DNA from: an uncultured Candidatus Saccharibacteria bacterium
Lineage (GTDB): Bacteria; Patescibacteriota; Minisyncoccia; Phycocordibacterales; CAIZLB01
Direction of reading: 5' to 3'
Length of the DNA stretch: 33,440 nt
Assembly: GCA_964610005.1 (NCBI GenBank)
Contig: CAZSTO010000001.1
Location: 1 to 33,440 of the forward strand
Part shown: in pieces, positions 3,597 to 24,609 of the stretch
Layout of the letters: each line of letters starts with the position of its first letter
Numbering within the stretch: the first letter of the stretch is position 1
Made by a program: the position numbers and the translations under genes
The notes under the pieces: model-generated
Told to the model about the DNA's origin: nothing
Databases searched by the model: none
What the model saw: only the letters and a program-made list of their open reading frames with translations

Positions 3597-3630
3597 AAAA
3601 ATCCCGGTCCTTAAAAGGTCCGGGTTTTTT
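3597..3630. terminator. Bidirectional intrinsic terminator
   Basis: cccggtcc (3603-3610) / ggtccggg (3617-3624) stem with one mismatch, flanked by an A-run (3597-3601) and a T-run (3625-3630). It lies between the convergent ftsX and small lipoprotein ORF. Confidence 0.7.
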
Positions 3631-3652
3631 GATACCTTTGACGGTATAGGGT

Positions 3653-3820
3653 TTACCAACCGTTTTCTGGTTTGGGTATCTCTTGCCCATAGAATCCGTC
3701 ATCACCGTCCTGTGTCTTTGTGGAGGTACTAACAAAATGGACTCTGATCTCAAGAGGTACACATCCCTGGAGTAGAATGATCATGGTTAACACGAGGGCG
3801 GAGTATAAGAGGCTTTTCAT
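3653..3820 (-). CDS. Small (55 aa) predicted lipoprotein
   Basis: MKSLLYSALVLTMIILLQGC has signal-peptide features and a lipobox (L-Q-G-C). Start is taken at the internal ATG of ORF 3653..3841. G+C is visibly above the surroundings. Confidence 0.5.
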   Translation of the reverse strand: MKSLLYSALVLTMIILLQGCVPLEIRVHFVSTSTKTQDGDDGFYGQEIPKPENGW

Positions 3821-8572: not shown

Positions 8573-9658
8573 TATAAATATTATACCTAAGATATAGGGT
8601 ATAATTCTAGCTGATCTTATTATTAAAAGTGCAGAGTTGTCTCTAGATGTTACATGTTTATAAAACATACTATCCATAGATATTTCCACTAAACTTAAAC
8701 CTATATTAGCAACAAATAAGAAAACTATAAATAATAAGAAAGATATATTTGGGTCATACTCTGGACTTATTAACGCTAAGAATATAGTAAATACAATAGC
8801 TGTTATTGCACCCAAATGCATGATGGATTTTTCATTATGTTTTTTATCTTCAATGTTTCCGAAAGGTATTTGTATTAATATAAATGGAGCAACCATAACT
8901 GATAATATTAATCCTATTTTATCCCAATCGAAGTTGAAAACACTGTGTAGGTATATGGGTAGTATTACTCCTATTGCTCCATAATAAGCTGATAAAGATA
9001 ATCGTATTAAGAATGAGTTTCTGTCCAGCTTATCTTGGAAAAACTTTTTAAGAGCATCGAGAACATGAACAGGGGGTATATCATTCACTTGAGGTGTTTT
9101 TATATATGTGTGTATAAGAAAGAAAAAAGGTATCAATAATATAGCTGAGATTATATAGACTATATTTAAATTATCCATAGTCAATGTACTCATCACTATA
9201 GGTACAACTATAAAAGGTGTATTCCATACGGTTAAATAAATACCACGACTCTTACCTCTATCTTTTATATTAGTATATGCTTCGAATAATACATCTAGAT
9301 TGAATAATATGTATGGGGTTATTAAGTTATGTATTGTAAATAAAACTATAAAGGCGTATATATTTGTATAAGCACTGAAATAAAACATAGATACCAATAT
9401 CAATATTTCAATAGCTGTAGCAATATATATATTCCTCTTGGTTTTATCTATCCAGCCTTCTCTGAGCATCAATAGATATACAGATAATCCAAATAAAGAA
9501 GCTATACCATAGATAACTAAAACTTCACTGGTTTTAAAGTTGAAATGATATCTAAGTATAGATGAATTTGTTAGATAAACAAATACATAATGTAACGATA
9601 GGAAAAATATCGACATGTATAAAGCCGTATTTACTCTTATCGATAAATATTTCTCCAT
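8558..9658 (-). CDS. Polytopic membrane protein, MFS-transporter-like
   Basis: 366 aa with about 10-11 hydrophobic helices. Family assigned by topology only. It ends at TAG and overlaps the convergent CAP gene by 15 nt. Confidence 0.45.
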   Translation of the reverse strand: MEKYLSIRVNTALYMSIFFLSLHYVFVYLTNSSILRYHFNFKTSEVLVIYGIASLFGLSVYLLMLREGWIDKTKRNIYIATAIEILILVSMFYFSAYTNIYAFIVLFTIHNLITPYILFNLDVLFEAYTNIKDRGKSRGIYLTVWNTPFIVVPIVMSTLTMDNLNIVYIISAILLIPFFFLIHTYIKTPQVNDIPPVHVLDALKKFFQDKLDRNSFLIRLSLSAYYGAIGVILPIYLHSVFNFDWDKIGLILSVMVAPFILIQIPFGNIEDKKHNEKSIMHLGAITAIVFTIFLALISPEYDPNISFLLFIVFLFVANIGLSLVEISMDSMFYKHVTSRDNSALLIIRSARIIPYILGIIFILISF

Positions 9659-10452
9659 TAGTTTTTAGGATTTATAAAATTTTGTTCTATAACTTGTCTT
9701 AATATTTCATAAGGTATAGCACCTACACCTTGTCCTTGATTATCAAGTAACGGTATAAATTCTTTTTCAAATTTTATAACAGTGTAAGGTGTACCTTTAG
9801 CACCTGCTTTAAGTGAAGCCTCGTATTCTTCTTTTATTTTTGCGGCATATTTTCCACTATCTAAACATGTTTGAAATTTAGTTTTGTCTAATCCAACTTT
9901 TGCAGCTATTTCAGGTAGCTTTGATGGCTCCAATCCATCATTTGATGGAGTAACTGCATATAGTTCATCTAGGTATTTCCAGAACATATCTGATCCTCCT
10001 AATTCTGCTGCACATTCTGTTGCCTCAGCTTCTTTTGCAGCTTTTTTATGTAGAGGGTTTTCTCCATATGATATAGGGAAATGTCTATAAACCCAGGCCA
10101 CATCATTATTTTTACCATATTCATCAAATATCTTTTTTAATGTTACATGATATTGTTTACAGAAAGGACACTCTGTGTCTGAGTATTCTATTAGGACAAC
10201 TTTGGCATTTTTATTTCCTCTTATATGATCAGTATCTCTTATGTCTTCTACTTCTATTTTAGGTTCAGTCTTACTGAATAGATCTTTATTTTTTGTTGAT
10301 TTTGCAGGTTCACGGAAATATAATGCTGATGCTATTAATATACCAACAACTATTATAGATATAGGTGTTAAGTAATTTGCAATATTGTTCTTCTTTTTTA
10401 TAACTACTTGCTCTGTTGAATTAGCGTGAGTTGTATTTGTTGTATTTTCCAT
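9658..10452 (-). CDS. DsbA-family thiol:disulfide oxidoreductase, membrane anchored
   Basis: CxxC active site in the context YSDTECPFCKQYH, with an N-terminal TM anchor. Confidence 0.8.
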   Translation of the reverse strand: MENTTNTTHANSTEQVVIKKKNNIANYLTPISIIVVGILIASALYFREPAKSTKNKDLFSKTEPKIEVEDIRDTDHIRGNKNAKVVLIEYSDTECPFCKQYHVTLKKIFDEYGKNNDVAWVYRHFPISYGENPLHKKAAKEAEATECAAELGGSDMFWKYLDELYAVTPSNDGLEPSKLPEIAAKVGLDKTKFQTCLDSGKYAAKIKEEYEASLKAGAKGTPYTVIKFEKEFIPLLDNQGQGVGAIPYEILRQVIEQNFINPKN

Positions 10453-13115: not shown

Positions 13116-13152
13116 AAAAAGACCCCGGGCTCCCTGGAAGGGAACCCGAGGC
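13116..13152 (-). terminator. GC-rich intrinsic terminator of the PEP-CTERM gene
   Basis: Minus strand cctcgggttccc-ttcca-gggagcccgggg (12 bp including 2 G-U pairs) followed by tcttttt. Confidence 0.7.
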
Positions 13153-13171
13153 TTTCGGGTGTCGGCAGTCA

Positions 13172-13708
13172 TCAGTCCCTGCGTCGGCGCAGGAGAGTGA
13201 GTAGGCCGAGAGGTGTGATGAGGGCAACGGTCGGTTCGGGAATGGCGGTCGAGTTATACTGGACGTAGAACGATGTCTCTTTGCCGATATTATCGACGAT
13301 CTTCCCAGATGCCGAGAACTTGTCCGGGATGACGTCGATCACGGCTTGATGCACCGTGAATTCCCAGTATGACGTGCTCGCAAATGAATCCCGATACGGT
13401 GAGTTCAGCAGGATCTGCAGGTAGCCACCCAATGCGTCTGTCGAACGATACGTTTGTCCGACGACCCAGGGATTTCCGACGTTTGCGGTTCTGAGGAAGA
13501 CAGAGCCTCCGGCAGGACCGCTGAAGGTGAACCCGATGTTGTTGTTGGTCAATCCCGATGTTTCCACAGTGACTGGACCGGTGATGCTGTAGGTGTTACC
13601 CCCGGACGTATAGCCCGGGCCGGCAAACCACAGAATTGTGGCAGATTTGGCTGTCATTGAGACTGCCATGAAAATCGCGACAACGATTCGAACGAGGTGC
13701 TCTTTCAT
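13172..13708 (-). CDS. Secreted PEP-CTERM sorting-domain protein
   Basis: Signal peptide VVAIFMAVSMTAKS. C-terminus is IPEPTVALITPLGLLTLLRRRRD, that is PEP, a TM helix and an Arg cluster. Ends at TGA. One counted line (13201-13260) has 35 of 60 G+C. Confidence 0.8.
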   Translation of the reverse strand: MKEHLVRIVVAIFMAVSMTAKSATILWFAGPGYTSGGNTYSITGPVTVETSGLTNNNIGFTFSGPAGGSVFLRTANVGNPWVVGQTYRSTDALGGYLQILLNSPYRDSFASTSYWEFTVHQAVIDVIPDKFSASGKIVDNIGKETSFYVQYNSTAIPEPTVALITPLGLLTLLRRRRD

Positions 13709-13765
13709 TTTGATATGCTGGTTGGTTGTAGAGTTCGCTGGGTGAACAGCTCACTCAGTGTTTTT

Positions 13766-13794
13766 ATATTACCACTTGGTTATAAGTATGTCAA
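13766..13794 (-). promoter_or_regulatory. Near-consensus sigma70-type promoter of the PEP-CTERM gene
   Basis: On the minus strand: TTGACA (13794-13789), 17 nt, TAATAT (13771-13766). This gives a leader of about 50 nt ending in a CA-rich, G-poor tract before the ATG. Confidence 0.5.
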
Positions 13795-13877
13795 ATTGTG
13801 GGAATATTAATATCTCAACACCAAAATCAATAAAAGCCAAGATTTCCCACAGGCAGAAAAATATTAAAATTAATAAT

Positions 13878-15521
13878 ATGAAATCAAAATTTATTTTCGT
13901 GATAGGTGGAGTTATGTCTGGAGTAGGAAAAGGAGTGGCGACATCATCACTTGGGCTTATTTTAAAAACCAAAGGTTACAAAGTTAATCTAGTAAAAGCT
14001 GACCCCTATTTAAATGTCGATGCAGGCACCATGAACCCAACGGAACATGGTGAAGTTTTTGTTATGAAAAACGGTTTAGAGACAGATCAAGATATGGGAA
14101 ATTATGAAAGATTTTTGCATCAAGATATTTCTCAAATAAATTATATGACTTCAGGCATGGTATATAAAACAGTTATAGATAAAGAAAGAGCTCTTGGCTA
14201 TGGAGGAAAATGTGTTGAGGCTATACCACATGTAAGAGATGAGATTATCAATAGATATAAAACTGCAGCAAAAGATGCTGACATAACTATAGTTGAGATT
14301 GGTGGAACTATTGGAGATTTTCAAAATGCCATGTTTATGGAAGCAGCCAAAACAATGAAATTAAAAAACCCCAAAGATGTAATGGTTATAGTTGTATCAT
14401 ATATGCCAACACCTGGAACTTTGGGAGAGATGAAATCAAAGCCTACACAAAGTGCCATCAGAGAATTGAATGGTTATGGATTACATCCTGATTTTATTAT
14501 TGCTAGAGCTTCAGCTCCGCTTGATGATAAAAGAAAAGAAAAGTTGGCTGTATCATGTAATGTATTAAAAGAAAATGTTATATCAGCACCAGATATAAAA
14601 AGTATATATGATGTACCACTTAATTTTAGTAAAGACAAAATAGGTGAGGCGGTACTTAAGGCATTATCCTTAAAAAATAAAAAAAATAATAAAGAATCAC
14701 AGAAACTTTGGTCTGATTGGAATAATTTTGTAAAAAATATTCATCTTAAAAAGAATAAAAATTTTCGTGTTGCCATGATTGGTAAATATTTTGATACTGG
14801 TGATTTTACACTTATGGATTCATATCTTTCTGTGATGGAAGCTTTGAAATTTGCTGCTGCTAAAGCCAAAGTCGGGGTAGAAATAGAGTGGGTTGATTCT
14901 AAAAACATAGAGAAAAATGGAGCGGTGCTTAAAGACGTATTTAAAAGATGTCATGGTCTTATAGTACCAGGAGGGTTTGGAACTACAGGTGTAGATGGAA
15001 TATTAAAATCTATTGAATATGTTCGTAAAAATAAAATACCTTATCTTGGTATATGTTATGGTATGCAACTTGCGGTTATAGAATACGCAACAAATGTTTT
15101 AGGTCTTAAAGGTGCTAATACTACTGAGATAGATAAAAATGCAAAACATAAAATTATAGATATAATGGAAAGTCAAAAAGAAAATCTAGCAAAACAAATG
15201 ATGGGTGGATCCATGAGACTTGGTTCATATAAATGTAAGTTAACAAAGGGAAGTGTAGTTCATGGTTTATACAATAAAGATGAAGTGGTTGAGAGACATA
15301 GACATAGATATGAAGTTAATAATGAATATGTAGAAGAGTTAGAGAAAAAAGGTTTGAAGTTTTCAGGAAAATCATTAGATGGAAAATTGATGGAGATGAT
15401 AGAGCTTGCAAAAGATAAACATCCCTATTTTGTGGCAACACAATCTCATCCAGAGTTTTTGTCGAGACCGACAACTTCACATCCTTTGTTTGATGGGTTG
15501 GTGAGAGCAATGATGAAATAA
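13878..15521 (+). CDS. pyrG: CTP synthase
   Basis: MKSKFIFVIGGVMSGVGKG synthetase N-terminus and the GICYGMQ glutamine amidotransferase motif. Start is taken at the internal ATG of ORF 13758..15521. Confidence 0.95.
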   Translation: MKSKFIFVIGGVMSGVGKGVATSSLGLILKTKGYKVNLVKADPYLNVDAGTMNPTEHGEVFVMKNGLETDQDMGNYERFLHQDISQINYMTSGMVYKTVIDKERALGYGGKCVEAIPHVRDEIINRYKTAAKDADITIVEIGGTIGDFQNAMFMEAAKTMKLKNPKDVMVIVVSYMPTPGTLGEMKSKPTQSAIRELNGYGLHPDFIIARASAPLDDKRKEKLAVSCNVLKENVISAPDIKSIYDVPLNFSKDKIGEAVLKALSLKNKKNNKESQKLWSDWNNFVKNIHLKKNKNFRVAMIGKYFDTGDFTLMDSYLSVMEALKFAAAKAKVGVEIEWVDSKNIEKNGAVLKDVFKRCHGLIVPGGFGTTGVDGILKSIEYVRKNKIPYLGICYGMQLAVIEYATNVLGLKGANTTEIDKNAKHKIIDIMESQKENLAKQMMGGSMRLGSYKCKLTKGSVVHGLYNKDEVVERHRHRYEVNNEYVEELEKKGLKFSGKSLDGKLMEMIELAKDKHPYFVATQSHPEFLSRPTTSHPLFDGLVRAMMK

Positions 15522-15555
15522 AAAATTACCGCCGCGAGCGCAAGGCTCGTGGCGG
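15521..15555. terminator. GC-rich hairpin terminator, copy 1 of an identical 27-nt element
   Basis: ccgccgcgagc-gcaag-gctcgtggcgg (15529-15555). On the minus strand it is followed by taattttt and serves cassette A; it may also end pyrG. It is identical to 16125-16151. Confidence 0.7.
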
Positions 15556-15579
15556 GTTTGGGTACGGCAGCTGGTTTCG

Positions 15580-16029
15580 TCAGACCTTCATCGTGAATTC
15601 GATTGGGCTAATCGTGAAAGAAGTTCCTTTTTCATTACGGTGAAATGTTGAGAAAGAGTGGTATAGGATACCAACTCGACGATCCTGGGTTTTTCCTGTC
15701 ACTGACCTGATGTAGGTGCAGAGACGAAGTGTTTCCAGGGAGCTAGTGGGGATGGTGGAAATCATCGCCTGAAGAGCCTTCGCAAAAAGGGTCTTCTCGT
15801 GAACTTCTTCCGGATCGTTTGGTTGCGAGCATCGATTGCTCAACAACTCCCTTGCAGAGTTGCAAATCGCCGCTTCTTCTTCGTCCGAAAAGGTAATCAG
15901 CATCTCTTCTCCGATTTTGCCGAAGTCGCGGTAAAAGATGATTGCACTCATCAACAAAACAGCGAAGCTGTCATTGATGGAGTCCATTGATTCTTGTTGT
16001 TTTAATTCCCCGTTGATATAGATATCCAT
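15580..16029 (-). CDS. Hypothetical protein, GC-rich cassette A (149 aa)
   Basis: Uninterrupted ORF ending in TGA, bracketed by a promoter/leader repeat and a terminator. Line 15781-15840 has 30 of 60 G+C. No family recognised. Confidence 0.6.
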   Translation of the reverse strand: MDIYINGELKQQESMDSINDSFAVLLMSAIIFYRDFGKIGEEMLITFSDEEEAAICNSARELLSNRCSQPNDPEEVHEKTLFAKALQAMISTIPTSSLETLRLCTYIRSVTGKTQDRRVGILYHSFSTFHRNEKGTSFTISPIEFTMKV

Positions 16030-16047
16030 GGTGGTTTTCTGGTTAGT

Positions 16048-16101
16048 GTTCGGACCCTCGTTTCTCTAAAGGGGTCTGTTAAGTTGAAGTATAATCATTT
16101 T
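16048..16101 (-). repeat. Leader/-10 repeat, copy A (about 54 nt)
   Basis: gttcggaccctcgtttctctaaaggggtctgttaagttgaagtataatcatttt. It differs from copy B (16632-16685) by one indel and two or three substitutions. It contains a gaccc/gggtc hairpin. Confidence 0.85.
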
Positions 16102-16115
16102 AAAGCTTTTGTAAA
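16088..16115 (-). promoter_or_regulatory. Possible promoter of cassette A
   Basis: On the minus strand: TTTACA (16115-16110), 16 nt, TATACT (16093-16088). The -10 lies inside the repeat. Confidence 0.45.
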
Positions 16116-16116
16116 T

Positions 16117-16151
16117 AAAAAACTCCGCCGCGAGCGCAAGGCTCGTGGCGG
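16117..16151 (-). terminator. GC-rich hairpin terminator, copy 2 (cassette B)
   Basis: The same 27-nt ccgccgcgagcgcaaggctcgtggcgg (16125-16151), followed on the minus strand by agtttttt. Confidence 0.75.
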
Positions 16152-16167
16152 GAGAGAGGGTGATGTC

Positions 16168-16611
16168 TCATGACGGCATGACGTATTCACCGTCAACGAT
16201 TTGTCCATCGTGTTCCTTGGGGTAATAATTGTAAGGCAATAGAATCTGAAACACCTCCGGACCAGTTTTGATGGCCGCTCCGTTTTCAAATCGGGTTTGC
16301 CGAACGACAGTAAGTTGAGGTTGAGGATCTGGATGTCTATCCATATATCCAGAACCATAATCCAGGGATTCGATGAATTTGGTGTTGACCTCTTCTGCGA
16401 TTAAATGCATCAGTCTAGGATCATCGCCGCAACCCAATTCAGCGGCAAGGGAGGATAGTTCATCGGGGGCAAGTTCGATGATAACCATCTCGCCTCTGTT
16501 TTCGTTATAAAGAGCAAGATGAATCCGGAGAATTTCCATAAGTTTTGTGCCTCCATAAACATTGAATGGGCAGACTTCAGCTCCTGGAAAGGCTTGTGTT
16601 GTTGATTTCAT
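16168..16611 (-). CDS. Hypothetical protein, GC-rich cassette B (147 aa)
   Basis: ORF ending in TGA. Start is taken at MKSTTQ (ATG 16611) because the upstream codons of ORF 16168..16683 lie in the duplicated leader. No family recognised. Confidence 0.6.
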   Translation of the reverse strand: MKSTTQAFPGAEVCPFNVYGGTKLMEILRIHLALYNENRGEMVIIELAPDELSSLAAELGCGDDPRLMHLIAEEVNTKFIESLDYGSGYMDRHPDPQPQLTVVRQTRFENGAAIKTGPEVFQILLPYNYYPKEHDGQIVDGEYVMPS

Positions 16612-16631
16612 GACGTAGTGTTTGGTGTTAA

Positions 16632-16685
16632 GTTCTGGACCCTCGTTTCTTTTAAGGGGTCTGTTAAGTTGAAGTATAATCATTT
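16632..16685 (-). repeat. Leader/-10 repeat, copy B
   Basis: gttctggaccctcgtttcttttaaggggtctgttaagttgaagtataatcattt, near-identical to 16048-16101. Confidence 0.85.
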
Positions 16686-16700
16686 CACTCGATAAATCAA
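16673..16700 (-). promoter_or_regulatory. Possible promoter of cassette B
   Basis: On the minus strand: TTGATT (16700-16695), 16 nt, TATACT (16678-16673). Confidence 0.45.
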
Positions 16701-16725: not shown

Positions 16726-17928
16726 ATGAGTGCCTCAAAATTTTTAAAAATAATATTAGTAATAATCGCTCTAATAGTCGCGTTTCTTGCAACACAAAGA
16801 GTTACTTCAAAAGATTTATTATCTTATTTCAAAGATATAAAACATAAGATAGAAGTAGATGCCTCAGCGACTACAACTGAAGAAAAAGTCGAGGCTCCTG
16901 TAGAAGAAAAGAAAATGTCTCATGTAAAGACACCTGAAAATGTTCGTGGTATATATGTTTCTGCAAACAGTTTCTTGTATAAACCATTTTTAGAAAGACT
17001 TGATAAGATGATAGAGGAAACAACTATAAACACAATAGTGGTTGATATAAAAGATGCACCTGGTGTTATAACTTATGATATTGGCATGCAACATCCTTGT
17101 ATACAGCCGCTTATTTCAAAAGAAGATTTAGAAGCAAAGCTTGATTATTATCATAAGAAAAATATTTATGTGATAGCACGTATAGCAGTTTTCCGTGATG
17201 AATGTTTTACAAAACAAAACTTAGATCTTGCGTCAAAGAAAGCTGACGGTACACCATGGAGAGATGGAAAAGGAAATTATTGGTTATCTCCAAGTAAAGA
17301 AAAAACCGCACAATATATAGTTGATCTTGCTAAAAATGTTTATGATAGAGGTTTTGATGAAATACAATTAGATTATGTGCGTTATCCTTCAGATGGTCAG
17401 ATGAATCTTTTAAGTTATGAATACAATGGGAATTTTACAGCTTCATCTACAGGTGCTGATAAAAGAAGACAGACTTTGGGAAATTTTCTAGCTTATGTTA
17501 GAAAAGGTTTAGAGGGTATACCTTTATCAGCTGATGTGTTTGGTATGGTCCTGACAAATACAGATGATTTAACTATAGGACAACATCTTGATGAATTTGT
17601 TCAACATGTAGATTATATCTCTGGCATGATTTATCCATCTCATTTTCCAAATAATTGGAATGGTATAAAGTTGCCAAATAAAGCACCATATCAAACTATA
17701 TATGATTCAACTAAGATGGGTTTGGATAGAGTTACAGCGACTCACGGAACTTCCACAGCTTATAAAGTGATGAGACCTTGGTTGCAAGATTTCTCAATAT
17801 TCGGAGTTGATTATAATGCACCTGAAGTAAAAGCTCAGATAAAAGCTTTGGATGATCTCGGTGTGAAAAGTTATTTGTTGTGGAATGCATCAAACAGATA
17901 TACACCTGGGGTTATTGATAGGGAGTAG
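16726..17928 (+). CDS. Membrane-anchored putative glycoside-hydrolase-like TIM-barrel protein (COG1306/DUF4015-like)
   Basis: N-terminal TM segment, VRGIYVS, TIVVDIKD and FDEIQLDYVRYP resemble that family. The call is made from memory of the family and not verified. Confidence 0.5.
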   Translation: MSASKFLKIILVIIALIVAFLATQRVTSKDLLSYFKDIKHKIEVDASATTTEEKVEAPVEEKKMSHVKTPENVRGIYVSANSFLYKPFLERLDKMIEETTINTIVVDIKDAPGVITYDIGMQHPCIQPLISKEDLEAKLDYYHKKNIYVIARIAVFRDECFTKQNLDLASKKADGTPWRDGKGNYWLSPSKEKTAQYIVDLAKNVYDRGFDEIQLDYVRYPSDGQMNLLSYEYNGNFTASSTGADKRRQTLGNFLAYVRKGLEGIPLSADVFGMVLTNTDDLTIGQHLDEFVQHVDYISGMIYPSHFPNNWNGIKLPNKAPYQTIYDSTKMGLDRVTATHGTSTAYKVMRPWLQDFSIFGVDYNAPEVKAQIKALDDLGVKSYLLWNASNRYTPGVIDRE

Positions 17929-17966: not shown

Positions 17967-18062
17967 AATCTCTTTATGAGACACAATGGGTTATCCCACT
18001 TGCCAGGATCATAATGGTCCGGCTTAAATCATCTCCGTATAATGTCAATTATACGGTTTTGA
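17967..18062 (+). ncRNA. Candidate ~95-nt antisense RNA convergent with MazF-like gene 1
   Basis: The predicted start is about 7 nt after the -10. Internal hairpin near 18003-18022. Terminator ccgtataat (18035-18043) / attatacgg (18048-18056) plus TTTT (18057-18060) lies inside the last codons of the minus-strand CDS. Confidence 0.4.
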
Positions 18063-18457
18063 ATTTTTATGAAATCATTCATAGAAATATAACCTATATA
18101 TTTACTAAGCCTTTTTGTATCGAGTGCTCTTATCTGAGATATAATAGCTGATTGCTCAATGTCTTGTAATAATAGTTTTATATAATATTTATTATCTTTA
18201 TTTTTAGTACTTAGGGGTATACCCCAAAACATCTCGTTATTAAATTTTTTAAATATTAAAACAGGACGATGAAAGTTCTCGCCTTTACCATCTTGTTCGT
18301 ATCCGATATTTTCACCCCAAAAACACCAATAGACCTGACATTCATTAATGATTAGATTATTTCGTTTAGTTTTATTTATTATAATTTTATTTATGATCCA
18401 GGATATAAATTTTTTTGACATTAATACATCATACGATATGGGTGTTAAAATTTTCAT
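18029..18457 (-). CDS. PemK/MazF-family toxin-like protein, paralog 1, with no adjacent antitoxin ORF
   Basis: VYWCFWGENIGYEQDGKGENFHRPVLIF ... PLSTK ... SQIRALDTKRL fits the MazF fold pattern GD.W.....G.E..G.RP.l.l ... QiR..D..R. It ends at TGA. An alternative start is ATG 18421. Confidence 0.75.
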   Translation of the reverse strand: MKILTPISYDVLMSKKFISWIINKIIINKTKRNNLIINECQVYWCFWGENIGYEQDGKGENFHRPVLIFKKFNNEMFWGIPLSTKNKDNKYYIKLLLQDIEQSAIISQIRALDTKRLSKYIGYISMNDFIKIQNRIIDIIRR

Positions 18458-19732: not shown

Positions 19733-19785
19733 TATTTTAAGGGTTTTGTGTTTATACAATCTTTATGAGAATTTGAACATGAAAA

Positions 19786-19794
19786 TGTTTTAAT
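19786..19794 (+). promoter_or_regulatory. Extended -10 box 6 nt before the ATG of MazF-like gene 2
   Basis: TG-t-TTTAAT, then tttgct, then ATG at 19801. The 19-nt string atgttttaattttgctatg recurs at 24594-24612. Confidence 0.45.
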
Positions 19795-19800
19795 TTTGCT

Positions 19801-20274
19801 ATGGAAGATTGGGAATTTATAGAAAAATATAATAAATGGAATATAAAAAAGCAAAATATACATTTTTTAGACAATAGAGATATTTACTTTAAAGAGGGTG
19901 ATATCTGGTGGTGTTCTATTGGTTTAAATATAGGTGATGAATCATATGGAAAGGGTAGGGATTTTAGAAGACCTATATTAATATTTAAAAAATTATCAAA
20001 AGATTTATGTATAGCACTACCTTTGACCTCAAAACTTAAAAAAGGGACCTGGTTTGTTGATATTATTCTAAATAATCAGTCTAGATGTGTCATGTTGTAT
20101 CAGATTCGTGTACTGAATAAAAAAAGATTTTCTATAAAGATAGGTGAAATATGTGATGACGATTTCAATAAAGTAAAAAGAAAACTCGAGAATCTATTCG
20201 AGTTTTCATTAAATCGTCACTCGACAAATGTCGAGATCGAAAGGGTTGATGCGACTCTCAACCCTCAAAGGTGA
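19801..20274 (+). CDS. PemK/MazF-family toxin-like protein, paralog 2, with no adjacent antitoxin ORF
   Basis: GDIWWCSIGLNIGDESYGKGRDFRRPILIF ... PLTSK ... YQIRVLNKKRF. It carries a 22-aa tail absent from paralog 1, encoded by hairpin-rich DNA. It ends at TGA. Confidence 0.75.
   Translation: MEDWEFIEKYNKWNIKKQNIHFLDNRDIYFKEGDIWWCSIGLNIGDESYGKGRDFRRPILIFKKLSKDLCIALPLTSKLKKGTWFVDIILNNQSRCVMLYQIRVLNKKRFSIKIGEICDDDFNKVKRKLENLFEFSLNRHSTNVEIERVDATLNPQR
20175..20272 (-). ncRNA. Candidate ~98-nt antisense RNA covering the last ~32 codons of MazF-like gene 2
   Basis: Three perfect hairpins: 20242-20265 (8 bp), 20220-20235, and 20180-20207 (10 bp). The last is followed on the minus strand by TTTTT (20175-20179). 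The predicted start coincides with the toxin stop codon. Confidence 0.5.
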
Positions 20275-20501: not shown

Positions 20502-22184
20502 ATGTCGCCTATGTCATTAGAGGAATTAAGTAGAGAAGATCTTTTGACTCGTGTAAAAGAGTTGGAAGCTAGATTAAAGAAAAATCAAAAATATGGTTTA
20601 GTATGGGAATCTAAAGAAGAACAAGTTGTTTTAGACTGTAAAGATAAATATCCTATATTAAAGCGTGTTGAAGATAGAAGTATTAGAGGAGGTGTTGGTC
20701 CAATGAATTATTTGATTGAGGGTGATAATTATCATGCTTTGAAGATCTTGCAATATACACATAAGGGTAAGATTGATGTGATTTATATAGATCCTCCGTA
20801 TAATACAGGGAATAAGGATTTTATCTATAATGATGATTTTGTTGATAAAGAAGATGGTTATAGACACAGTAAATGGCTGTCATTTATGGAGAGAAGGTTG
20901 AAGTTGGCAAAAGAATTATTGAAGGATACGGGGGTTATATTTATAAGTATAGATGATAATGAACAAGCACAGTTGAAATTATTGTGTGATGGGGTTTTTG
21001 GCGAGAGGAATTTTATAAGCTTATTTCCTAGATTGACAGTTAAAGGAGGTAAAACACAAAGCTTATTTAATACAAGTAACATAGATTATGTATATGTTTA
21101 TTCTAAGGATATTAATAAATCTCGTTTTAATAAATTATTAGTTAAAGATGATAATGCTTTTAAATATAAAGATAAATATTTTGATGAGAGAGGCTTTTAT
21201 CATACTAAACAATCTTTAGATAGTGTTAGTTTAGGGTATGTAAAATCTTTAGATTATCCAATAAATCATGAAGGTGTAACCTATTATCCTGGTGGTGTTA
21301 TTGAAAATAATGGATATAGATGGACTTGGTCTAAAGATAAGTTGGATTTCGCAATAAAAAATGATTTTGTGGAATTTAAAAATGGAAGAATATGGCCTAA
21401 AAAATATTTATTAGCTAGTATTGAAAAAGATAAAAATGGTTATTATATTAAATATGAAGATAGGGTAAAAAATTATTCACAATTAACTTTTATTGAAAAT
21501 CTATATTCAAATACAAATGGAACAAATACCTTAAGAGAGTTAGATGTTACGGATTTTAATAATGCAAAACCTGTTGATTTAATAAAAACAATTTGTGAAA
21601 TGTCTGGATCTAAATCCTCCATCATCCTCGATTTCTTCGCTGGCTCCGGGACCACAGGACATGCCGTACTTGAACTCAATAAACAAGATGGTGGTAATCG
21701 TCAATTCATACTTGTAACAAACAATGGTGACGAAAAGAGTGAGCATAAGATCGCTGAAAATATAACTTATGAAAGATTAAAAAGAGTCATGAGGGGTTAC
21801 ACAAACAAGAAAGGTGAAAAGGTAGAAGGTCTGGGTGGTAATCTTGATTATATGCGTTGTGAGTTTATAGATAAGATTGATCATCAAGATAGTATGAGGC
21901 TCAAGATCACAGAAAATTGTCTAGATACAATAATGTTTAAAGAGGGTAATGATAAAATCATAAAAAACACAGATGATTATACTATCACCAGTAGTACTGT
22001 TCTAAATATGGATAATATGACAGCTATATATAAAACCTGGAATGATGAAAATATAGATAAATTTAAAAAAGATATAGAGAAAATAAATAGACCGGTAAAC
22101 GTGTATTTAAATCCATTCATTGATAAAGATGAATTTAATTATTTGGATAAGGTTAATATTAAAAATATTCAAGACATAATATAA
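20502..22184 (+). CDS. mod: Type III restriction-modification methyltransferase (Mod)
   Basis: DPPYNTG (motif IV) lies N-terminal to FFAGSGTTGHAV (motif I), with a variable region between. The res gene follows after 4 nt. Confidence 0.85.
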   Translation: MSPMSLEELSREDLLTRVKELEARLKKNQKYGLVWESKEEQVVLDCKDKYPILKRVEDRSIRGGVGPMNYLIEGDNYHALKILQYTHKGKIDVIYIDPPYNTGNKDFIYNDDFVDKEDGYRHSKWLSFMERRLKLAKELLKDTGVIFISIDDNEQAQLKLLCDGVFGERNFISLFPRLTVKGGKTQSLFNTSNIDYVYVYSKDINKSRFNKLLVKDDNAFKYKDKYFDERGFYHTKQSLDSVSLGYVKSLDYPINHEGVTYYPGGVIENNGYRWTWSKDKLDFAIKNDFVEFKNGRIWPKKYLLASIEKDKNGYYIKYEDRVKNYSQLTFIENLYSNTNGTNTLRELDVTDFNNAKPVDLIKTICEMSGSKSSIILDFFAGSGTTGHAVLELNKQDGGNRQFILVTNNGDEKSEHKIAENITYERLKRVMRGYTNKKGEKVEGLGGNLDYMRCEFIDKIDHQDSMRLKITENCLDTIMFKEGNDKIIKNTDDYTITSSTVLNMDNMTAIYKTWNDENIDKFKKDIEKINRPVNVYLNPFIDKDEFNYLDKVNIKNIQDII

Positions 22185-22188
22185 ATCT

Positions 22189-24507
22189 ATGAAATTTACA
22201 CTTAAAAATTATCAAGAAAAAGCTGTTAATTCTCTAAAAGACAGAGTTTATAATTTTCTTTCATTTAATGATTCAGAAAAGAGAATAATAACCTTTAAAG
22301 CACCTACAGGTTCAGGAAAAACTGTTATGATGGCTTCTTTTATAGAGAATTTGATAGAATCAAATAAAGATTTAAAGAATATAGATTTTACATTTTTATG
22401 GTTATCTATAGGTACAGGTGATTTACATAATCAGAGTAAAAAGTCTCTAGAGAAAAATATCGGTGATAATATAAAAATACAAAGTATAGATGAGGTATAT
22501 GGTACATAAAAAAATGAATTATTAAAGGATTCGGTAATGGTTTCTAATTGGGAAAAAGTGTGGACCAAAAATAAAAAAACAGGCGATTGGAAAAGTATTG
22601 CCATGAGAGATGGTGATTATATAAATTTTCGAGAAATATTAAATAATACAAATAGTATTGGTAGAAAGATTGTATTGATAATAGATGAATCATACATAGC
22701 TACCGATGCTGCTAGAGGTAGAGAGATTGTTGATTTGATAAATCCTAATATCGTAATAGAAGTATCGGCTACTCCGAATCTAAGGTTATCAGGTAAAGAT
22801 ATTATAGATAATAAAGGTTGGATTGAAGAGATAAATCCACAAGATGTTATAGATGAAGAAATGATAAAGGATCAAATAATAGTTAATTCTGATTTTGTTT
22901 TATTTAAAAAAGATGACAGCGATCAAACTGTCTTAAGAAGTGCTATTAATAAACGTGATGAATTGGTTAATCTCTATAAAGAATATAATATAAATGTAAA
23001 CCCACTTTTATTAATACAATTACCAAATAGCAGAGATGGTGAATCTGCTATGGAAATGGTCTTGGATTTTTTAGAGAAAGAAAAAGGGGTAAAACAAGGC
23101 GATGATAGATTAGCTATATGGTTAAGTGAAAAAGATATTAGTGATAGAAATATAGATAACATAAGTAAAAATAATTCCAAACAAGAATATCTCATATTTA
23201 AACAAGCCATAGCAACGGGTTGGGATTGTCCCAGGGCTCAAATATTATTAAAATTCAGAGAAGTTAAAAGTGATGTATTCGAAATACAAGTTTTAGGTAG
23301 GATATTAAGGACTCCTGAGCAAAAGCATTATTCTATAGAAGCTCTAAATAAGGCTTATGTGTATGTGAATTCTGATGAAATCAGTTTTAAAATAGAAGAT
23401 TATAATGCAAAGATTTTGGGTGATTTACCATCTATAAGAAAAAGGGATTATAAAGATATAAAATTGAATTCTTTTTATCAAGAACGTAAAGACTATCAAG
23501 ATATAAAATCAGAATTTAAAAAGGTATTATCGGATTGCTTTATAGATAAGTTGAATTTGATAGAAGGGGACTATAATAAAAATATAAAAAAATTAGAAAA
23601 AGAAGGTTGGAAATTTGAATTGGAAGATATATATCATAAAGTTATTTCAGATATTAGTGTTGATGTAAAAACAATAGATCAATATTATCTGCCCGTAGAA
23701 GATGATACAAAAGAAACTTTGAATATAAGTGATAGACAAATAGAGATAATATCTAGAAATATATTTAAAAAGCTGATGAACCCTTTTACTAATATTGCCA
23801 GGTCTATACCAGTGATGAATCTTGCCTGGTATGCTTTCTGTCGAAATATTTTTGGGGAAAATCTAATGAAAAAAGATTTTATAAGCTCTCAGACTTTACT
23901 TATAATGAATTTGCAAAAGGTTCAGCAGATATTTATAGAGGCTGTAGAAAAATATTCGAAAATCAAAAAGAAAAAACTTCAAGCAGAAAGTGAACATTAT
24001 AGTATATTTGAAATACCTAAGATTGATTATTTTAATTCTGAATTAGTTGATAATATAAATTATGATAAGTATATTTTAGATAATTGTTATTTGTATAAAG
24101 ATAGATCTAAACCAGAAAGAGATTTTGAGAATTTGTTGAATAATTCCAAAAAAGTAAAATGGTGGTATAAAAACGGCGTAAATCGTGATGATTATTTTGG
24201 TATTAAATATGAATATGATAATAAAGACGGTAAAGAAACTATTCACACCTTTTATCCTGATTATGTGGTTAAATTTAATGATGAAAAAATAGGTATATTT
24301 GAAACAAAGGCAGAGTCAGATCCAGATGCTCACACTAAAACGAAGGTAAAAGCTGAGGAATTATACAAATATATACAAAAAGAGAATAAAATAGGTAAAA
24401 AACTTCTTGGGGGAATTGTTGTATTTAAGGAAAAAGAAAATAAATGGAGAATACAAAATAAAAAAGAATATTCACTAACAGAAGGCTGGGAAGAGTTAAT
24501 TTTTTAA
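22189..24507 (+). pseudogene. res: Type III restriction enzyme Res subunit interrupted by an in-frame TAA
   Basis: KAPTGSGKT (helicase motif I), LIIDESY (motif II-like) and a C-terminal PD-(D/E)xK-like YPDYVV...GIFETKA. TAA at 22507-22509 is in the same frame as both halves (106 + 656 aa). Confidence 0.75.
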
Positions 24508-24594
24508 TTCATGTGTCTCGAAATATGTATTTAAATAAACACAGAAAATAAAACTTAATTTTATATTTTCTTAATCAAGACTTTATACCGTATA

Positions 24595-24603
24595 TGTTTT
24601 AAT
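24595..24603 (+). promoter_or_regulatory. Extended -10 box 6 nt before ATG 24610
   Basis: TG-t-TTTAAT, then tttgct, then ATG. Confidence 0.45.
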
Positions 24604-24609
24604 TTTGCT

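What the first reader, a model, noticed from the sequence alone, without database searches (positions are those of the whole stretch)
15521..16700. Tandem GC-rich gene cassettes with duplicated promoter/leader and identical terminator hairpins but different cargo
Two minus-strand units follow each other between pyrG and the next AT-rich gene. Each unit has a -35 box, a TATACT -10 box and a leader of about 54 nt, followed by an ORF of 147-149 aa that ends in TGA and then a terminator. The leaders (16048-16101 versus 16632-16685) are near-identical, with one indel and two or three substitutions. The terminator in both units is the same 27-nt hairpin ccgccgcgagcgcaaggctcgtggcgg (15529-15555 and 16125-16151) plus a U-tract. 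The two ORFs show no obvious similarity to each other or to anything I recognise. Line 15781-15840 has 30 of 60 G+C, against 21-22 of 60 in neighbouring host coding lines. The leaders end in CA-rich, G-poor tracts with no Shine-Dalgarno sequence. Conserved regulatory flanks around variable cargo suggest a modular cassette system. The nearest analogies are phage morons or arrays of acquired immunity genes with repeated intergenic promoters.
Basis: partly seen in the sequence, partly recalled or inferred. Interest (0 to 1): 0.75.

Follow-up and report, generated by a model that had tools for sequence, protein, structure and literature searches.

The report
Strain-variable array of self-contained gene units
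Between two housekeeping genes of an AT-rich, Saccharibacteria-like bacterium lies a tandem array of small genes, each with its own near-identical promoter, leader and terminator, and close relatives carry zero to at least three such genes encoding orphan proteins of unknown function.

Summary
Two minus-strand units (15519-16115 and 16116-16700) each have a promoter sharing the 13-mer AAATGATTATACT, a 58-61 nt leader without a Shine-Dalgarno sequence, an ORF of 147 or 149 aa ending in TGA, and the same 27-nt terminator hairpin. Their G+C is 45%, against 30.6% for the window.

It is not a chimera: six independent assemblies give the same layout.

In relatives, the same pyrG/DUF4015 gap holds 0, 1, 2 or at least 3 such units. 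They are drawn from at least five cargo families in different orders. Twenty units from 11 loci share the architecture.

A relative with about 95% backbone identity carries an entirely different cargo. For one cargo family (B), synonymous divergence is 0.88 where the neighbouring gene shows 0.13. This points to recombinational exchange.

I found no recombinase, attC site, phage gene or viral match. The cargo families match no known family or fold. They share size, acidity, predicted secondary-structure order and a central strand-plus-acidic-helix motif, so they are probably very distant paralogs.

Best reading: a recombinase-independent, hypervariable multigene array whose repeated regulatory junctions serve as homology for duplication, loss and swapping. 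Protein function is unknown. I guess a role in strain-level conflict or host interaction.

The parts
16673..16700 (-). Unit 1 promoter: -35 TTGATT (16700-16695), 16-nt spacer, -10 TATACT (16678-16673). It includes the 13-mer AAATGATTATACT (16685-16673), which is exact in 15 of the 20 units compared.
   Evidence: Consensus scan; 13-mer alignment and counts across related loci; only two exact copies in the window.
16612..16672 (-). Unit 1 leader, 61 nt. It has a short hairpin (16638-16661, GACCC...GGGTC) followed by a G-poor, CA-rich tract up to the ATG, with no Shine-Dalgarno sequence.
   Evidence: Sequence; fold -6.5 kcal/mol; hairpin kept in diverged leaders; last 25 nt are A11 C8 G2 T4.
16168..16611 (-). 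Cargo family A ORF: 147 aa, pI 4.6, TGA stop. Orphan protein.
   Evidence: No Pfam, NCBIfam, PHROG or PADLOC hit. Only 3 representatives among 1.84 billion proteins. AF2 model pLDDT 68, pTM 0.66, with no fold match.
16116..16151 (-). Unit 1 terminator: 27-nt hairpin (16125-16151) plus a U-tract (16117-16122) that runs straight into the -35 of unit 2.
   Evidence: -20 kcal/mol, z -4.5.
16088..16115 (-). Unit 2 promoter: -35 TTTACA (16115-16110), 16-nt spacer, -10 TATACT (16093-16088), with AAATGATTATACT at 16100-16088.
16030..16087 (-). Unit 2 leader, 58 nt: hairpin at 16053-16076, then a CA-rich, G-poor tract.
   Evidence: last 25 nt are A11 C10 G2 T2.
15580..16029 (-). Cargo family B ORF: 149 aa, pI 5.1, TGA stop. 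Orphan protein under purifying selection.
   Evidence: only 4 clusters among 5.8 billion; dN/dS about 0.13; AF2 pLDDT 42, not interpretable.
15519..15555 (-). Unit 2 terminator: the same 27-nt hairpin (15529-15555) plus a U-tract (15520-15525) that overlaps the pyrG stop codon (15519-15521, + strand). It probably also serves the convergent pyrG.
   Evidence: -19.5 kcal/mol, z -2.3.
13788..15521 (+). pyrG (CTP synthase), the conserved right-hand anchor of the variable site.
   Evidence: Pfam domains recorded on homologous loci; 98% aa identity to L013 and 88% to L007.
16726..17928 (+). DUF4015 putative glycosyl hydrolase gene, the conserved left-hand anchor. It is transcribed divergently from unit 1.
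   Evidence: Pfam PF13200, E = 2e-88; synteny in all related loci.

Best explanation
What it is. The block is a tandem array of autonomous single-gene transcription units. It sits at a fixed chromosomal hot spot between pyrG and a DUF4015 gene. The host is an AT-rich bacterium; a relative with about 95% backbone identity is deposited as 'uncultured Candidatus Saccharibacteria'.

Anatomy (shown). Each unit consists of:
- a sigma-70-like promoter with the conserved core AAATGATTATACT;
- a leader of 50-62 nt in 19 of the 20 units compared (27 nt in one), with a short 5' hairpin in most of them and an unstructured, G-poor, CA-rich tract in place of a Shine-Dalgarno sequence;
- an ORF, 146-162 aa in most units (99 and 168 aa at the extremes);
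- a GC-rich hairpin plus U-tract, whose T-run abuts the -35 box of the next unit.

Cargo (partly shown, partly inferred). The cargo falls into at least five families restricted to this lineage (A-D and F). They are unrecognisable to one another by plain sequence comparison. They share size, acidity (families A-D), predicted secondary-structure order (A and B), and a central hydrophobic strand followed by an acidic helix. I infer that they are very old paralogs of one superfamily.

How it works (inferred).
- The roughly 135-bp junction repeated between units is the only homology between neighbouring units.
- Unequal crossing-over and gene conversion at these junctions would change copy number and order and keep the junctions alike within a genome.
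- The junctions, together with pyrG and the DUF4015 gene, would also serve as homology arms. Incoming DNA from other strains could then replace cargo by ordinary homologous recombination, with no dedicated recombinase.
- The design reads as an insulated, constitutive, probably high-expression socket for each protein.
- The raised G+C could come from GC-biased gene conversion at a recombination hot spot or from an old foreign origin. This is unresolved.

Protein function is not shown. My committed guess, at about 30%, is cytoplasmic strain-specific conflict proteins (immunity-like or anti-defence-like). The main alternative is effectors for the epibiotic host interaction.
For: Architecture repeated in 20 units from 11 loci (sequences).

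Same site, variable content:
- window A-B; L007 A-B-C; L010 D-B-C; L008 B-D; L140 C-A; L139 C-F-(possible D fragment);
- L013 and L136 C only; L141 B only;
- L135, L137 and L138 empty.
- L135 retains only TTGATTTATCGAGT, the upstream half of the promoter, which suggests a deletion.

Exchange:
- Window vs L013: backbone 95.5% nt identity, pyrG 98% aa, but cargo A-B versus C. Homology resumes exactly in the leader and the terminator.
- Window vs L010: DUF4015 dS 0.13, family B dS 0.88, with B omega 0.14. The deep divergence is therefore not due to relaxed or positive selection.

Junction behaviour: both L007 junctions share a lineage-specific insertion (ATGTA in the alignment). They are 79% identical to each other, against 73-77% to the window and L010 junctions.

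Possible paralogy:
- The AF2 models of A and B give the same element order, beta-beta-alpha-beta-alpha-alpha-beta-beta-beta, at matching positions.
- hhalign local hits all fall on the same region, roughly residues 15-90: A-C P = 8e-4, B-C 5e-4, B-F 1.2e-3, A-F 0.015, A-D 0.026.
- Families A-D have pI 4.5-6.7; 12 of the 13 listed proteins are below 5.7.

No dedicated machinery: no recombinase or transposase among ORFs 357-27847.

Not an artefact: identical layout in six independent assemblies from different assemblers.

Natural competence and recombination-based genetics are reported for cultivated Saccharibacteria (PMC10633639, abstract as listed).
Against: - Homology among cargo families is not established. 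The hhalign probabilities are only 1-30%, the family alignments are shallow, and the B model is of low confidence (pLDDT 42).
- The leader hairpin is weak in the window copies (z about -0.5 to -0.7). Its covariation support is modest: one pair with changes on both sides, and 9 of 500 shuffles reach the observed covariation score.
- Promoter activity, transcript ends and expression level are inferred from sequence alone.
- Exchange by transformation is inferred. Long-term balancing selection on ancient alleles could also give the dS discordance.
- Only 33 kb around the locus was inspected for recombinases.
- Junction clustering by genome is slight (0.79 versus 0.73-0.77).
- Nothing tested bears on the proteins' function.
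Confidence: 0.55

Rival explanations
1. Site-specific cassette capture, integron-like or rAID-like. The conserved hairpins are recombination sites for a dedicated recombinase encoded elsewhere in the genome, which inserts, excises and shuffles unrelated ORFs.
For: The array is co-directional, with repeated intergenic sequences, skewed G+C and variable content between strains. This matches the hallmarks described for rAID-1 clusters (bioRxiv 10.1101/471110, read). Similarity between units of different families starts and stops close to the ORF ends.
Against: No recombinase lies within the window ORFs scanned or in any related locus. The 3' hairpin is a 27-nt near-perfect GC stem followed by a U-tract, which is a standard intrinsic terminator and not a 57-141-nt imperfect attC. 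Every unit has its own promoter, unlike integron cassettes. The cargo shares a motif and a secondary-structure order, so it is probably not unrelated.
Confidence: 0.08
2. Independently acquired foreign genes: moron-like insertions from phages or other higher-G+C donors, each domesticated behind a host-type promoter.
For: - G+C is 45% and GC3 0.40-0.54, against host GC3 0.21. The cassettes use TGA stops where host genes mostly use TAA.
- The promoter-ORF-terminator layout equals the classical moron layout.
- Other single-gene GC-rich islands with the same general design but different sequences exist in these genomes: the PEP-CTERM-like gene at 13172-13708 and the MGS-like gene in L007.
Against: - No relative of A or B, and no copy of the leader or hairpin, was found in 2.9 million viral contigs, 50,697 phage records or 72,556 plasmids. 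There is no PHROG hit.
- Exhaustive HMMER for family A, and word-indexed searches with HMMER scoring for B and C, found relatives only in small clusters. Every relative whose context could be read lies at this same locus.
- The flanking genes are housekeeping genes.
- The shared motif argues for one family.
Confidence: 0.12
3. A plain, static local duplication: two vertically inherited paralogs that drifted apart, with flanks conserved only because promoters and terminators are constrained.
For: The cargo families are probably distant paralogs. In the one related species-representative genome in the scanned collection, the leader pattern occurs once, at this locus, although that fixed pattern would miss variant promoters.
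Against: - Content differs completely between genomes with about 95% backbone identity, and empty sites exist.
- Unit order differs: A-B-C versus C-A versus D-B-C.
- Family B dS is 0.88, against 0.13 in the adjacent gene.
- The hairpins are identical including the loop and the A·C mismatch, which is not what functional constraint alone predicts.
- A unit with the same promoter lies at a different locus, upstream of rpsB. It is on a contig from the same metagenome assembly as a close relative.
Confidence: 0.1
4. Assembly chimera: the GC-rich block comes from another organism.
For: There is an abrupt composition change at both borders.
Against: The same junctions with pyrG and DUF4015 appear in six contigs from different samples and different assemblers (MEGAHIT-type, SPAdes-type and Logan). 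They also appear in syntenic relatives.
Confidence: 0.01

Closest known systems
Minimal mobile elements of Neisseria (Saunders & Snyder 2002, as cited in PMC1538595)
   Same: Alternative gene content sits between the same pair of conserved chromosomal genes in different strains. There are no mobility genes. Exchange is thought to occur by natural transformation and homologous recombination in the flanks. This is the best match for how the locus behaves. The definition of a minimal mobile element used here is from my own knowledge; the passages read only mention the term and give the citation.
   Different: Here the content is a tandem series of one-gene units with internally repeated promoter and terminator junctions. 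These add internal recombination substrates. The cargo belongs to what is probably one orphan superfamily rather than to assorted genes.
Recombinase-associated acquired interbacterial defence clusters (rAID-1) of Bacteroidales (bioRxiv 10.1101/471110)
   Same: Co-directional arrays of small genes, repetitive intergenic sequences, G+C skewed relative to the genome, and strain-variable content.
   Different: rAID-1 is defined by a 5' XerD-like recombinase and contains homologs of known immunity genes. Neither is present here. The G+C deviation is upward here and downward there.
Phage morons (own knowledge: Juhala et al. 2000; Hendrix et al. 2000)
   Same: A promoter, one ORF and a terminator form an independent unit whose base composition differs from its neighbours.
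   Different: The location is between cellular housekeeping genes, with no phage genes or viral homologs. The units are tandem and share regulatory sequences.
Integron gene cassettes
   Same: A tandem, co-directional series of single-ORF modules, each with a conserved palindromic element at its 3' end.
   Different: There is no IntI, attI or attC architecture. Every unit has its own promoter. The palindrome is an intrinsic terminator.
Mycoplasma variable-protein gene families such as vlp and vsp (own knowledge)
   Same: Tandem paralogs in a small AT-rich genome, with highly conserved 5' non-coding regions, divergent coding bodies and strain-variable gene number.
   Different: Those families encode lipoproteins with a conserved signal peptide and internal repeats, and they phase-vary through promoter tracts or inversions. 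Here I see no signal peptide by eye, no repeats and no homopolymer switch.

Membership tests
Integron | Adjacent IntI-type tyrosine recombinase with attI and a common promoter Pc | tested here: not met
   No recombinase or integrase domain in the window ORFs between 357 and 27847 or in related loci. ORFs beyond 27847 and the rest of the genome were not examined.
Integron | attC site at the 3' end of each cassette: an imperfect palindrome of 57-141 nt with extrahelical bases; cassettes mostly promoterless | tested here: not met
   The 3' element is a 27-nt stem-loop with one A·C mismatch followed by a U-tract. Each unit carries its own -35 and -10 boxes.
rAID-1 (Bacteroidales) | 5' XerD-like recombinase with more than 44% identity to BF9343_RS08045 (criterion quoted) | tested here: not met
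   No recombinase domain lies upstream of the array. The upstream gene is the DUF4015 gene.
rAID-1 (Bacteroidales) | At least 2 co-directional genes with deviant G+C and repetitive intergenic sequences | tested here: met
   The deviation is upward (45% vs 30.6%), whereas rAID-1 was defined with G+C of 41% or lower.
rAID-1 (Bacteroidales) | Genes homologous to known toxin-immunity families | tested here: not met
   No Pfam, NCBIfam or PADLOC hits for families A-E. No PDB sequence match for A, B or C and no PDB fold match for the family A model.
Phage moron | Autonomous promoter-ORF-terminator unit with atypical composition | tested here: met
   (sequence-level prediction only).
Phage moron | Inserted between genes of a phage or prophage | tested here: not met
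   The flanks are pyrG, DUF4015, an ABC transporter and HisRS. There are no PHROG hits and no viral, phage or plasmid matches.
Minimal mobile element (Neisseria type) | Different gene content between the same conserved flanking genes in different strains, with no mobility genes | tested here: met
   Between 0 and at least 3 units from families A-D and F lie between pyrG and DUF4015 in 13 loci that could be read.
Minimal mobile element (Neisseria type) | Exchange by transformation and homologous recombination in the flanks | tested here: inconclusive
   Indirect evidence only: dS 0.88 in cargo B versus 0.13 in the flank, and homology breaks at the leader and terminator. The mechanism cannot be observed with these tools.
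Intrinsic (rho-independent) terminator | GC-rich stem-loop immediately followed by a U-tract | tested here: met
   Stem of 10 pairs plus one A·C mismatch, -19.5 and -20 kcal/mol, followed by UUUUUU within 2-3 nt. The simple scanner missed both hairpins, probably because of the internal mismatch.
Single protein superfamily (cargo A-D and F as paralogs) | Statistically supported sequence or structure homology between the families | tested here: inconclusive
   hhalign P values of 5e-4 to 0.03, all on the same core region, but probabilities of 30% or less. A and B share secondary-structure order, but the B model has pLDDT 42.

The most novel reading that the evidence does not exclude
This lineage of candidate-phyla-radiation (Patescibacteria) bacteria, whose cultivated Saccharibacteria relatives are naturally competent, has a recombinase-free 'plug-and-play' cassette system. 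Conserved promoter-leader and terminator junctions act as portable homology arms and as insulated expression sockets. Strains can then gain, lose, reorder and swap members of a previously unknown superfamily of small acidic proteins that mediate strain-specific conflict or host interaction. Sustained gene conversion at the hot spot drives the cassettes' G+C about 15 points above the genome.
Probability: 0.25. Interest if true: 0.75.

Novelty: new variant of a known kind. Interest (0 to 1): 0.55.

Why it matters
Candidate-phyla-radiation bacteria such as Saccharibacteria are tiny bacteria that live attached to the surface of other bacteria. The determinants of their strain-level host range and conflict are almost unknown.

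This locus is a compact, easily recognised site that differs between near-identical strains. Its design predicts independent, probably strong, expression of each gene. It encodes proteins with no relatives outside the lineage. That makes it a concrete candidate for strain-specific interaction or defence functions.

It is also a natural example of insulated expression units that work without Shine-Dalgarno sequences. The promoter, leader and terminator parts could be useful for the new genetic tools in these organisms.

Finally, the locus offers a test case for two questions: whether repeated regulatory junctions alone can drive cassette-like gene turnover, and whether biased gene conversion can hold a local G+C island in an AT-rich genome.

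Tried and rejected
1. Metagenome-wide scan with the degenerate promoter pattern TTKAYN9RAAATGATTATACT. Only L056 was a clear cassette, so the single metagenome scan was largely wasted.
2. Genome-collection scan with a 20-base leader pattern. It returned one true locus (L013) and one chance hit in an archaeon. The window's own genome is evidently not a species representative there, so its other loci could not be searched.
3. Viral contigs gave no leader, no hairpin and no relatives of A or B. Phage and plasmid BLAST gave nothing.
4. Pfam, NCBIfam, PHROGs and PADLOC on the cargo families gave nothing above noise.
5. AlphaFold2 of family B with a 4-sequence alignment gave pLDDT 42, which is unusable for fold search. 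The family A model (pLDDT 68) gave no Foldseek match in PDB or BFVD; the best E-values were 0.19 and 0.34, with TM about 0.3.
6. PDB profile searches for A, B and C returned only chance-level hits.
7. Rfam at gathering threshold and at E <= 0.1 gave no known RNA family anywhere in the window. No tRNA gene marks an integration site.
8. First-round hhalign between small family alignments was not significant. It improved only modestly with more sequences.
9. Positive selection as the cause of family B divergence was rejected: omega is about 0.13 and dS is high.
10. An alternative genetic code (UGA read as a sense codon) was considered because the cassettes end in TGA. I rejected it because long host ORFs are intact under table 11.
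11. Accession searches in the literature to learn the sampled environment found nothing.

Full report
OBSERVATION. On the minus strand, two consecutive units fill the gap between pyrG (13788-15521, +) and a DUF4015 gene (16726-17928, +).

- Unit 1 (A): -35 TTGATT at 16700-16695; -10 TATACT at 16678-16673; leader 16672-16612; ORF 16611-16168 (147 aa, TGA); hairpin 16151-16125; U-tract.
- Unit 2 (B): -35 TTTACA at 16115-16110; -10 TATACT at 16093-16088; leader 16087-16030; ORF 16029-15580 (149 aa, TGA); hairpin 15555-15529. Its U-tract overlaps the pyrG stop codon.

The leader repeat is 49 nt at 96% identity. The terminator repeat is 43 nt at 86%, with an identical 27-nt core. That core occurs exactly twice in the window, with zero expected by chance. 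The exact 13-mer AAATGATTATACT occurs only at the two promoters. The terminators fold at -19.5 and -20 kcal/mol, with z-scores of -2.3 and -4.5.

G+C is 0.45-0.49 in the block, against 0.306 for the window. GC3 is 0.40 (A) and 0.54 (B), against 0.21 (range 0.14-0.25) for 27 host genes.

- Absence of a Shine-Dalgarno sequence is a property of the whole genome. Only 2 of 27 host genes have an SD-like 4-mer. Twelve of 27 have a TATAAT-like hexamer within 16 nt of the ATG, which suggests leaderless or near-leaderless mRNAs. What sets the cassettes apart is that they do have a roughly 60-nt leader.
- The leader hairpin is weak in the window copies: -6.5 and -6.7 kcal/mol, z about -0.5 to -0.7.
- The 171-aa ORF called by gene finders for unit 1 begins at the ATG inside the promoter 13-mer. 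The same frame is closed in unit 2.

NOT AN ARTEFACT. The exact 149-aa protein, in the same pyrG/cassette/cassette/DUF4015 layout, is on six contigs. They come from different samples and different assemblers.

COMPARATIVE ANATOMY. I collected related loci in four ways:
- homologs of family B (loci);
- an exhaustive HMMER search for family A (loci);
- a profile search for family C (loci);
- contigs carrying pyrG at 90% identity or more.

A genome-collection scan with the leader pattern also found L013.

In every case the units lie in the same pyrG/DUF4015 gap, but the content differs:
- window A-B;
- L007 A-B-C;
- L010 D-B-C (cut by the contig end);
- L008 B-D;
- L140 C-A;
- L139 C-F-(possible D fragment, cut);
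- L134 A first (cut);
- L013 and L136 C only;
- L141 a divergent B only;
- L135, L137 and L138 empty.

L135 keeps only TTGATTTATCGAGT, the upstream half of the first promoter, fused to the T-run next to pyrG. This looks like a deletion scar.

In total, 20 units from 11 loci share one design:
- a -35 box, TTGATT in the first unit of an array and TTTACA in internal units, where it directly follows the previous terminator's T-run;
- AAATGATTATACT, exact in 15 of the 20 units and with one to three changes in the other five;
- a leader of 50-62 nt in 19 of the 20 units (27 nt in L139 unit 2);
- an ORF of 146-162 aa, apart from one of 99 aa and one of 168 aa (two more are cut by contig ends);
- a GC hairpin plus T-run.

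One further unit (L056, 168 aa, family E) has the same promoter, a hairpin and a CA-rich leader but sits upstream of rpsB. Its contig comes from the same metagenome assembly (JACCDZ01) as L141. The design is therefore not strictly confined to one locus.

HOST AND CONTEXT. L013 shares 95.5% nucleotide identity with the window backbone. Its record is titled 'uncultured Candidatus Saccharibacteria bacterium'. I did not verify the taxonomy independently.

The window encodes FtsEX, aldolase, RmuC, a methyltransferase, a CAP-domain protein, an MFS transporter, DsbA, an exonuclease, an ABC transporter, pyrG, DUF4015, two PemK-like toxins, HisRS, a type III restriction-modification system and type IV pilus genes. 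Among ORFs 357-27847 there is no recombinase, transposase or phage gene. There are no tRNA genes and no Rfam match.

EVIDENCE FOR EXCHANGE.
- Window versus L013: pyrG 98% aa, ABC transporter 99.5%, DUF4015 96%, yet the cargo is A-B versus C. Nucleotide homology stops at the terminator (about 15560) and resumes in the leader (about 16602).
- Window versus L010: the DUF4015 N-terminal region is 99% identical with dS 0.13, whereas the two B alleles are 78.5% identical with dS 0.88 and dN/dS 0.14.

The deep divergence therefore includes silent sites, and the gene is under purifying selection. This argues for replacement by a divergent allele, or for very old alleles kept at the locus. It argues against fast protein evolution.

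The junctions (stop codon to next ATG) are 88% identical between the window and L010. They are 74-77% identical between the window and L007. The two junctions within L007 are 79% identical to each other and share a lineage-specific insertion. This is slight evidence for homogenisation or duplication within lineages.

THE LEADER. In the 13 leaders aligned, a helix occupies the same place, 12-35 nt after the -10 box. The stems differ in sequence: GACCC/GGGTC, GGACCTCG/CGAGGTTC, AACCTTGTA/TACAAGGTT; a short stem occupies a similar position in L056.

An 8-pair helix has 78.6% of cells paired. One of 500 shuffles reaches that, and every slid register is lower. The covariation score is reached by 9 of 500 shuffles. 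Only one pair shows changes on both sides. Support is moderate.

The last 25 nt before the ATG are A/C-rich with 2 G in the two cassette leaders and 1 G in the PEP-CTERM-like gene's leader.

From established knowledge, not tested here:
- 5'-terminal stem-loops protect mRNAs from 5'-end-dependent decay (the ompA and aprE leaders are examples);
- unstructured A/C-rich leaders favour initiation where no Shine-Dalgarno pairing is used.

I therefore read each unit as an insulated expression module with a stabilised mRNA.

THE PROTEINS. Families A-E have no Pfam, NCBIfam, PHROG or PADLOC match.
- Family A has 3 representatives among 1.84 billion cluster representatives.
- Family B has 4 clusters and family C has 7 among 5.8 billion.
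- Every relative whose context could be read lies at this locus.

The family A model (pLDDT 68, pTM 0.66) has no Foldseek match in PDB or BFVD. The B model is poor, with pLDDT 42. PDB profile searches for A, B and C give nothing. One JGI source names a B homolog a 'HAD superfamily phosphatase', but no HAD model matches, so I disregard the name.

Plain BLAST finds no similarity between families. Several lines suggest common ancestry:
- The sizes are equal, and the pI of families A-D is 4.5-6.7, with 12 of 13 proteins below 5.7.
- The models of A and B have the same order of elements at matching positions: strands near 2-17, helix 22-37, strand 42-46, helix 49-66, helix 67-91, then three long strands.
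- Every family has a hydrophobic strand followed by an acidic helix at about residues 40-65. Examples are MLITFSDEEE, VIIELAPDEL, LIVFTDKEL, FVYMDEEEE and LITLSDEEL.
- hhalign local alignments all fall on this same core: A-C P = 8e-4 over 60 columns; B-C 5e-4; B-F 1.2e-3 over 51 columns; A-F 0.015; A-D 0.026.

The hhalign probabilities stay at 30% or below, so paralogy is probable but not proven.

MECHANISM (inferred). The repeated junctions, about 135 bp each, are the only sequences shared by neighbouring units. They are adequate substrates for unequal crossing-over (copy-number change, deletion to the L135 state, reordering) and for gene conversion. Conversion would stall in the non-homologous coding bodies.

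Together with pyrG and DUF4015, the junctions are also homology arms for replacing cargo with DNA taken up from other strains. The window encodes a type IV pilus. Cultivated Saccharibacteria are reported to be naturally competent (PMC10633639). No dedicated recombinase is needed, and none is seen.

The raised G+C is unexplained. It could be a remnant of an old foreign origin. Against that, the family looks long resident: L008's units are nearer to host composition, at 35-40% G+C. Alternatively it could result from GC-biased gene conversion at a recombination hot spot. That idea comes from own knowledge and was not tested.

Other single-gene GC-rich islands in these genomes have the same general layout but unrelated sequences. 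The layout is a promoter, a short hairpin, a CA-rich leader, an ORF and a hairpin terminator. Examples are the PEP-CTERM-like gene at 13172-13708 and the MGS-like gene in L007. The layout may therefore be how this lineage expresses leadered genes of higher G+C in general.

FUNCTION. Nothing tested bears on it directly. The proteins are small and acidic and have no signal peptide by eye. Each family is under purifying selection and shows presence/absence variation between near-identical strains. This is the population pattern of defence, immunity or host-interaction accessory genes. I commit to 'strain-specific conflict or interaction proteins acting in the cytoplasm' at roughly 30%. Secreted effectors of the epibiotic lifestyle are the main alternative.

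COMPARISON WITH KNOWN SYSTEMS.
- In behaviour, the locus is closest to the minimal mobile elements of Neisseria. From my own knowledge of Saunders & Snyder 2002, these are sites with alternative content between fixed chromosomal genes, no mobility genes, and exchange by transformation. The passages read in PMC1538595 only mention the term and give that citation.
- In appearance, it resembles rAID-1 arrays: repetitive intergenic sequences, skewed G+C and co-directional small genes (bioRxiv 10.1101/471110). It fails their defining recombinase and immunity-homology criteria.
- It has the unit layout of a phage moron but is not in a phage.
- It is not an integron: there is no IntI or attC, and every unit has its own promoter.

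VERDICT. This is a real and tidy feature: a recombinase-free, strain-variable tandem array of self-contained expression units. It encodes a superfamily of orphan proteins restricted to one lineage, in a bacterium deposited as Saccharibacteria. It is a new variant of a known kind (hypervariable islets and multigene arrays). Interest is moderate to good at 0.55. The integron, immunity-array and moron analogies hold for layout only.

Noticed in passing
window 13122-13794 (minus strand): A third GC-rich single-gene island (55% G+C, GC3 0.66) lies on the other side of pyrG. It encodes a 178-aa protein with an N-terminal signal-like segment and a PEP-CTERM-like C-terminus (PEPTVALITPLGLLTLLRRRRD). 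The only NCBIfam hits are weak and below cutoff. It has its own promoter (TTGACA-17-TAATAT with an upstream TG), a 5' hairpin (-11.1 kcal/mol, z -3.1), a CA-rich leader and a strong terminator (-29 kcal/mol). It is present in L013 and L135; L136 has a 188-aa ORF at that position. It is absent in L007 and is replaced by an 86-aa Smr-like gene in L137 and L138, so this site is variable too. A PEP-CTERM sorting signal would be unexpected in a Saccharibacteria-like cell.
   Followed up: partly
window 3600-3810: A GC-rich (0.47) stretch of about 200 nt lies in the FtsX-aldolase intergenic gap. It has a terminator-like hairpin (cccggtccttaaaaggtccggg followed by T6). On the minus strand there is a 45-aa ORF by my own reading of the sequence, preceded by TATACT. 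There is no Rfam match.
   Followed up: no
window, upstream of most host genes (for example 1945, 4969, 9658-10452, 27835, 28321): Host genes lack Shine-Dalgarno motifs: only 2 of 27 have one. Twelve of 27 have a TATAAT-like hexamer within 16 nt of the ATG, which suggests widespread leaderless or very short-leader mRNAs in this organism.
   Followed up: partly
window 19751-19806 and 24560-24615: A shared motif of about 20 nt, ATGTTTTAATTTTGCTATG, sits immediately before the start codons of two unrelated genes. One is a PemK-like toxin (19801) and the other a type IV pilus ATPase (24610) (family D8).
   Followed up: no
window 18029-18457 (-) and 19801-20274 (+): Two PemK/MazF-like toxin genes flank hisS. 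No adjacent antitoxin ORF appeared in the ORF lists.
   Followed up: no
window 20502-24507: A type III restriction-modification locus. The Mod methylase is followed by a Res gene that appears split into a 106-aa ORF (ResIII N-terminus) and a 656-aa ORF with no Pfam hit.
   Followed up: no
L056 1-660: A unit with the same promoter (TTTACA...AAATGATTATACT), a short hairpin, a CA-rich leader, a 168-aa basic orphan ORF (family E, pI 8.7) and a terminator lies upstream of rpsB. This is a different locus. The contig comes from the same metagenome assembly (JACCDZ01) as L141, whose pyrG is at least 90% identical to the window's.
   Followed up: partly
L007 600-1400 (minus strand): A GC-rich (0.47) single-gene island encodes a 208-aa protein with an MGS-like domain. 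To my eye it resembles IMP cyclohydrolase. It has the same general layout: promoter, short hairpin, CA-rich leader and hairpin terminator.
   Followed up: no
window 16612-16683; also L008 1892-1957 and L010 1603-1671: The ATG inside the conserved promoter 13-mer (AAATGATT...) is sometimes in frame with the cargo. Gene callers then report N-terminally extended proteins that begin MIILQLNRPLKRNEG... (171 aa for unit 1). This is an annotation artefact, and it inflates apparent similarity between unrelated cargo proteins.
   Followed up: yes
P0004 (= L008 1365-1820): A JGI source names this family B homolog 'beta-phosphoglucomutase-like phosphatase (HAD superfamily)'. No Pfam model supports that name, so it is probably a misannotation.
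   Followed up: yes
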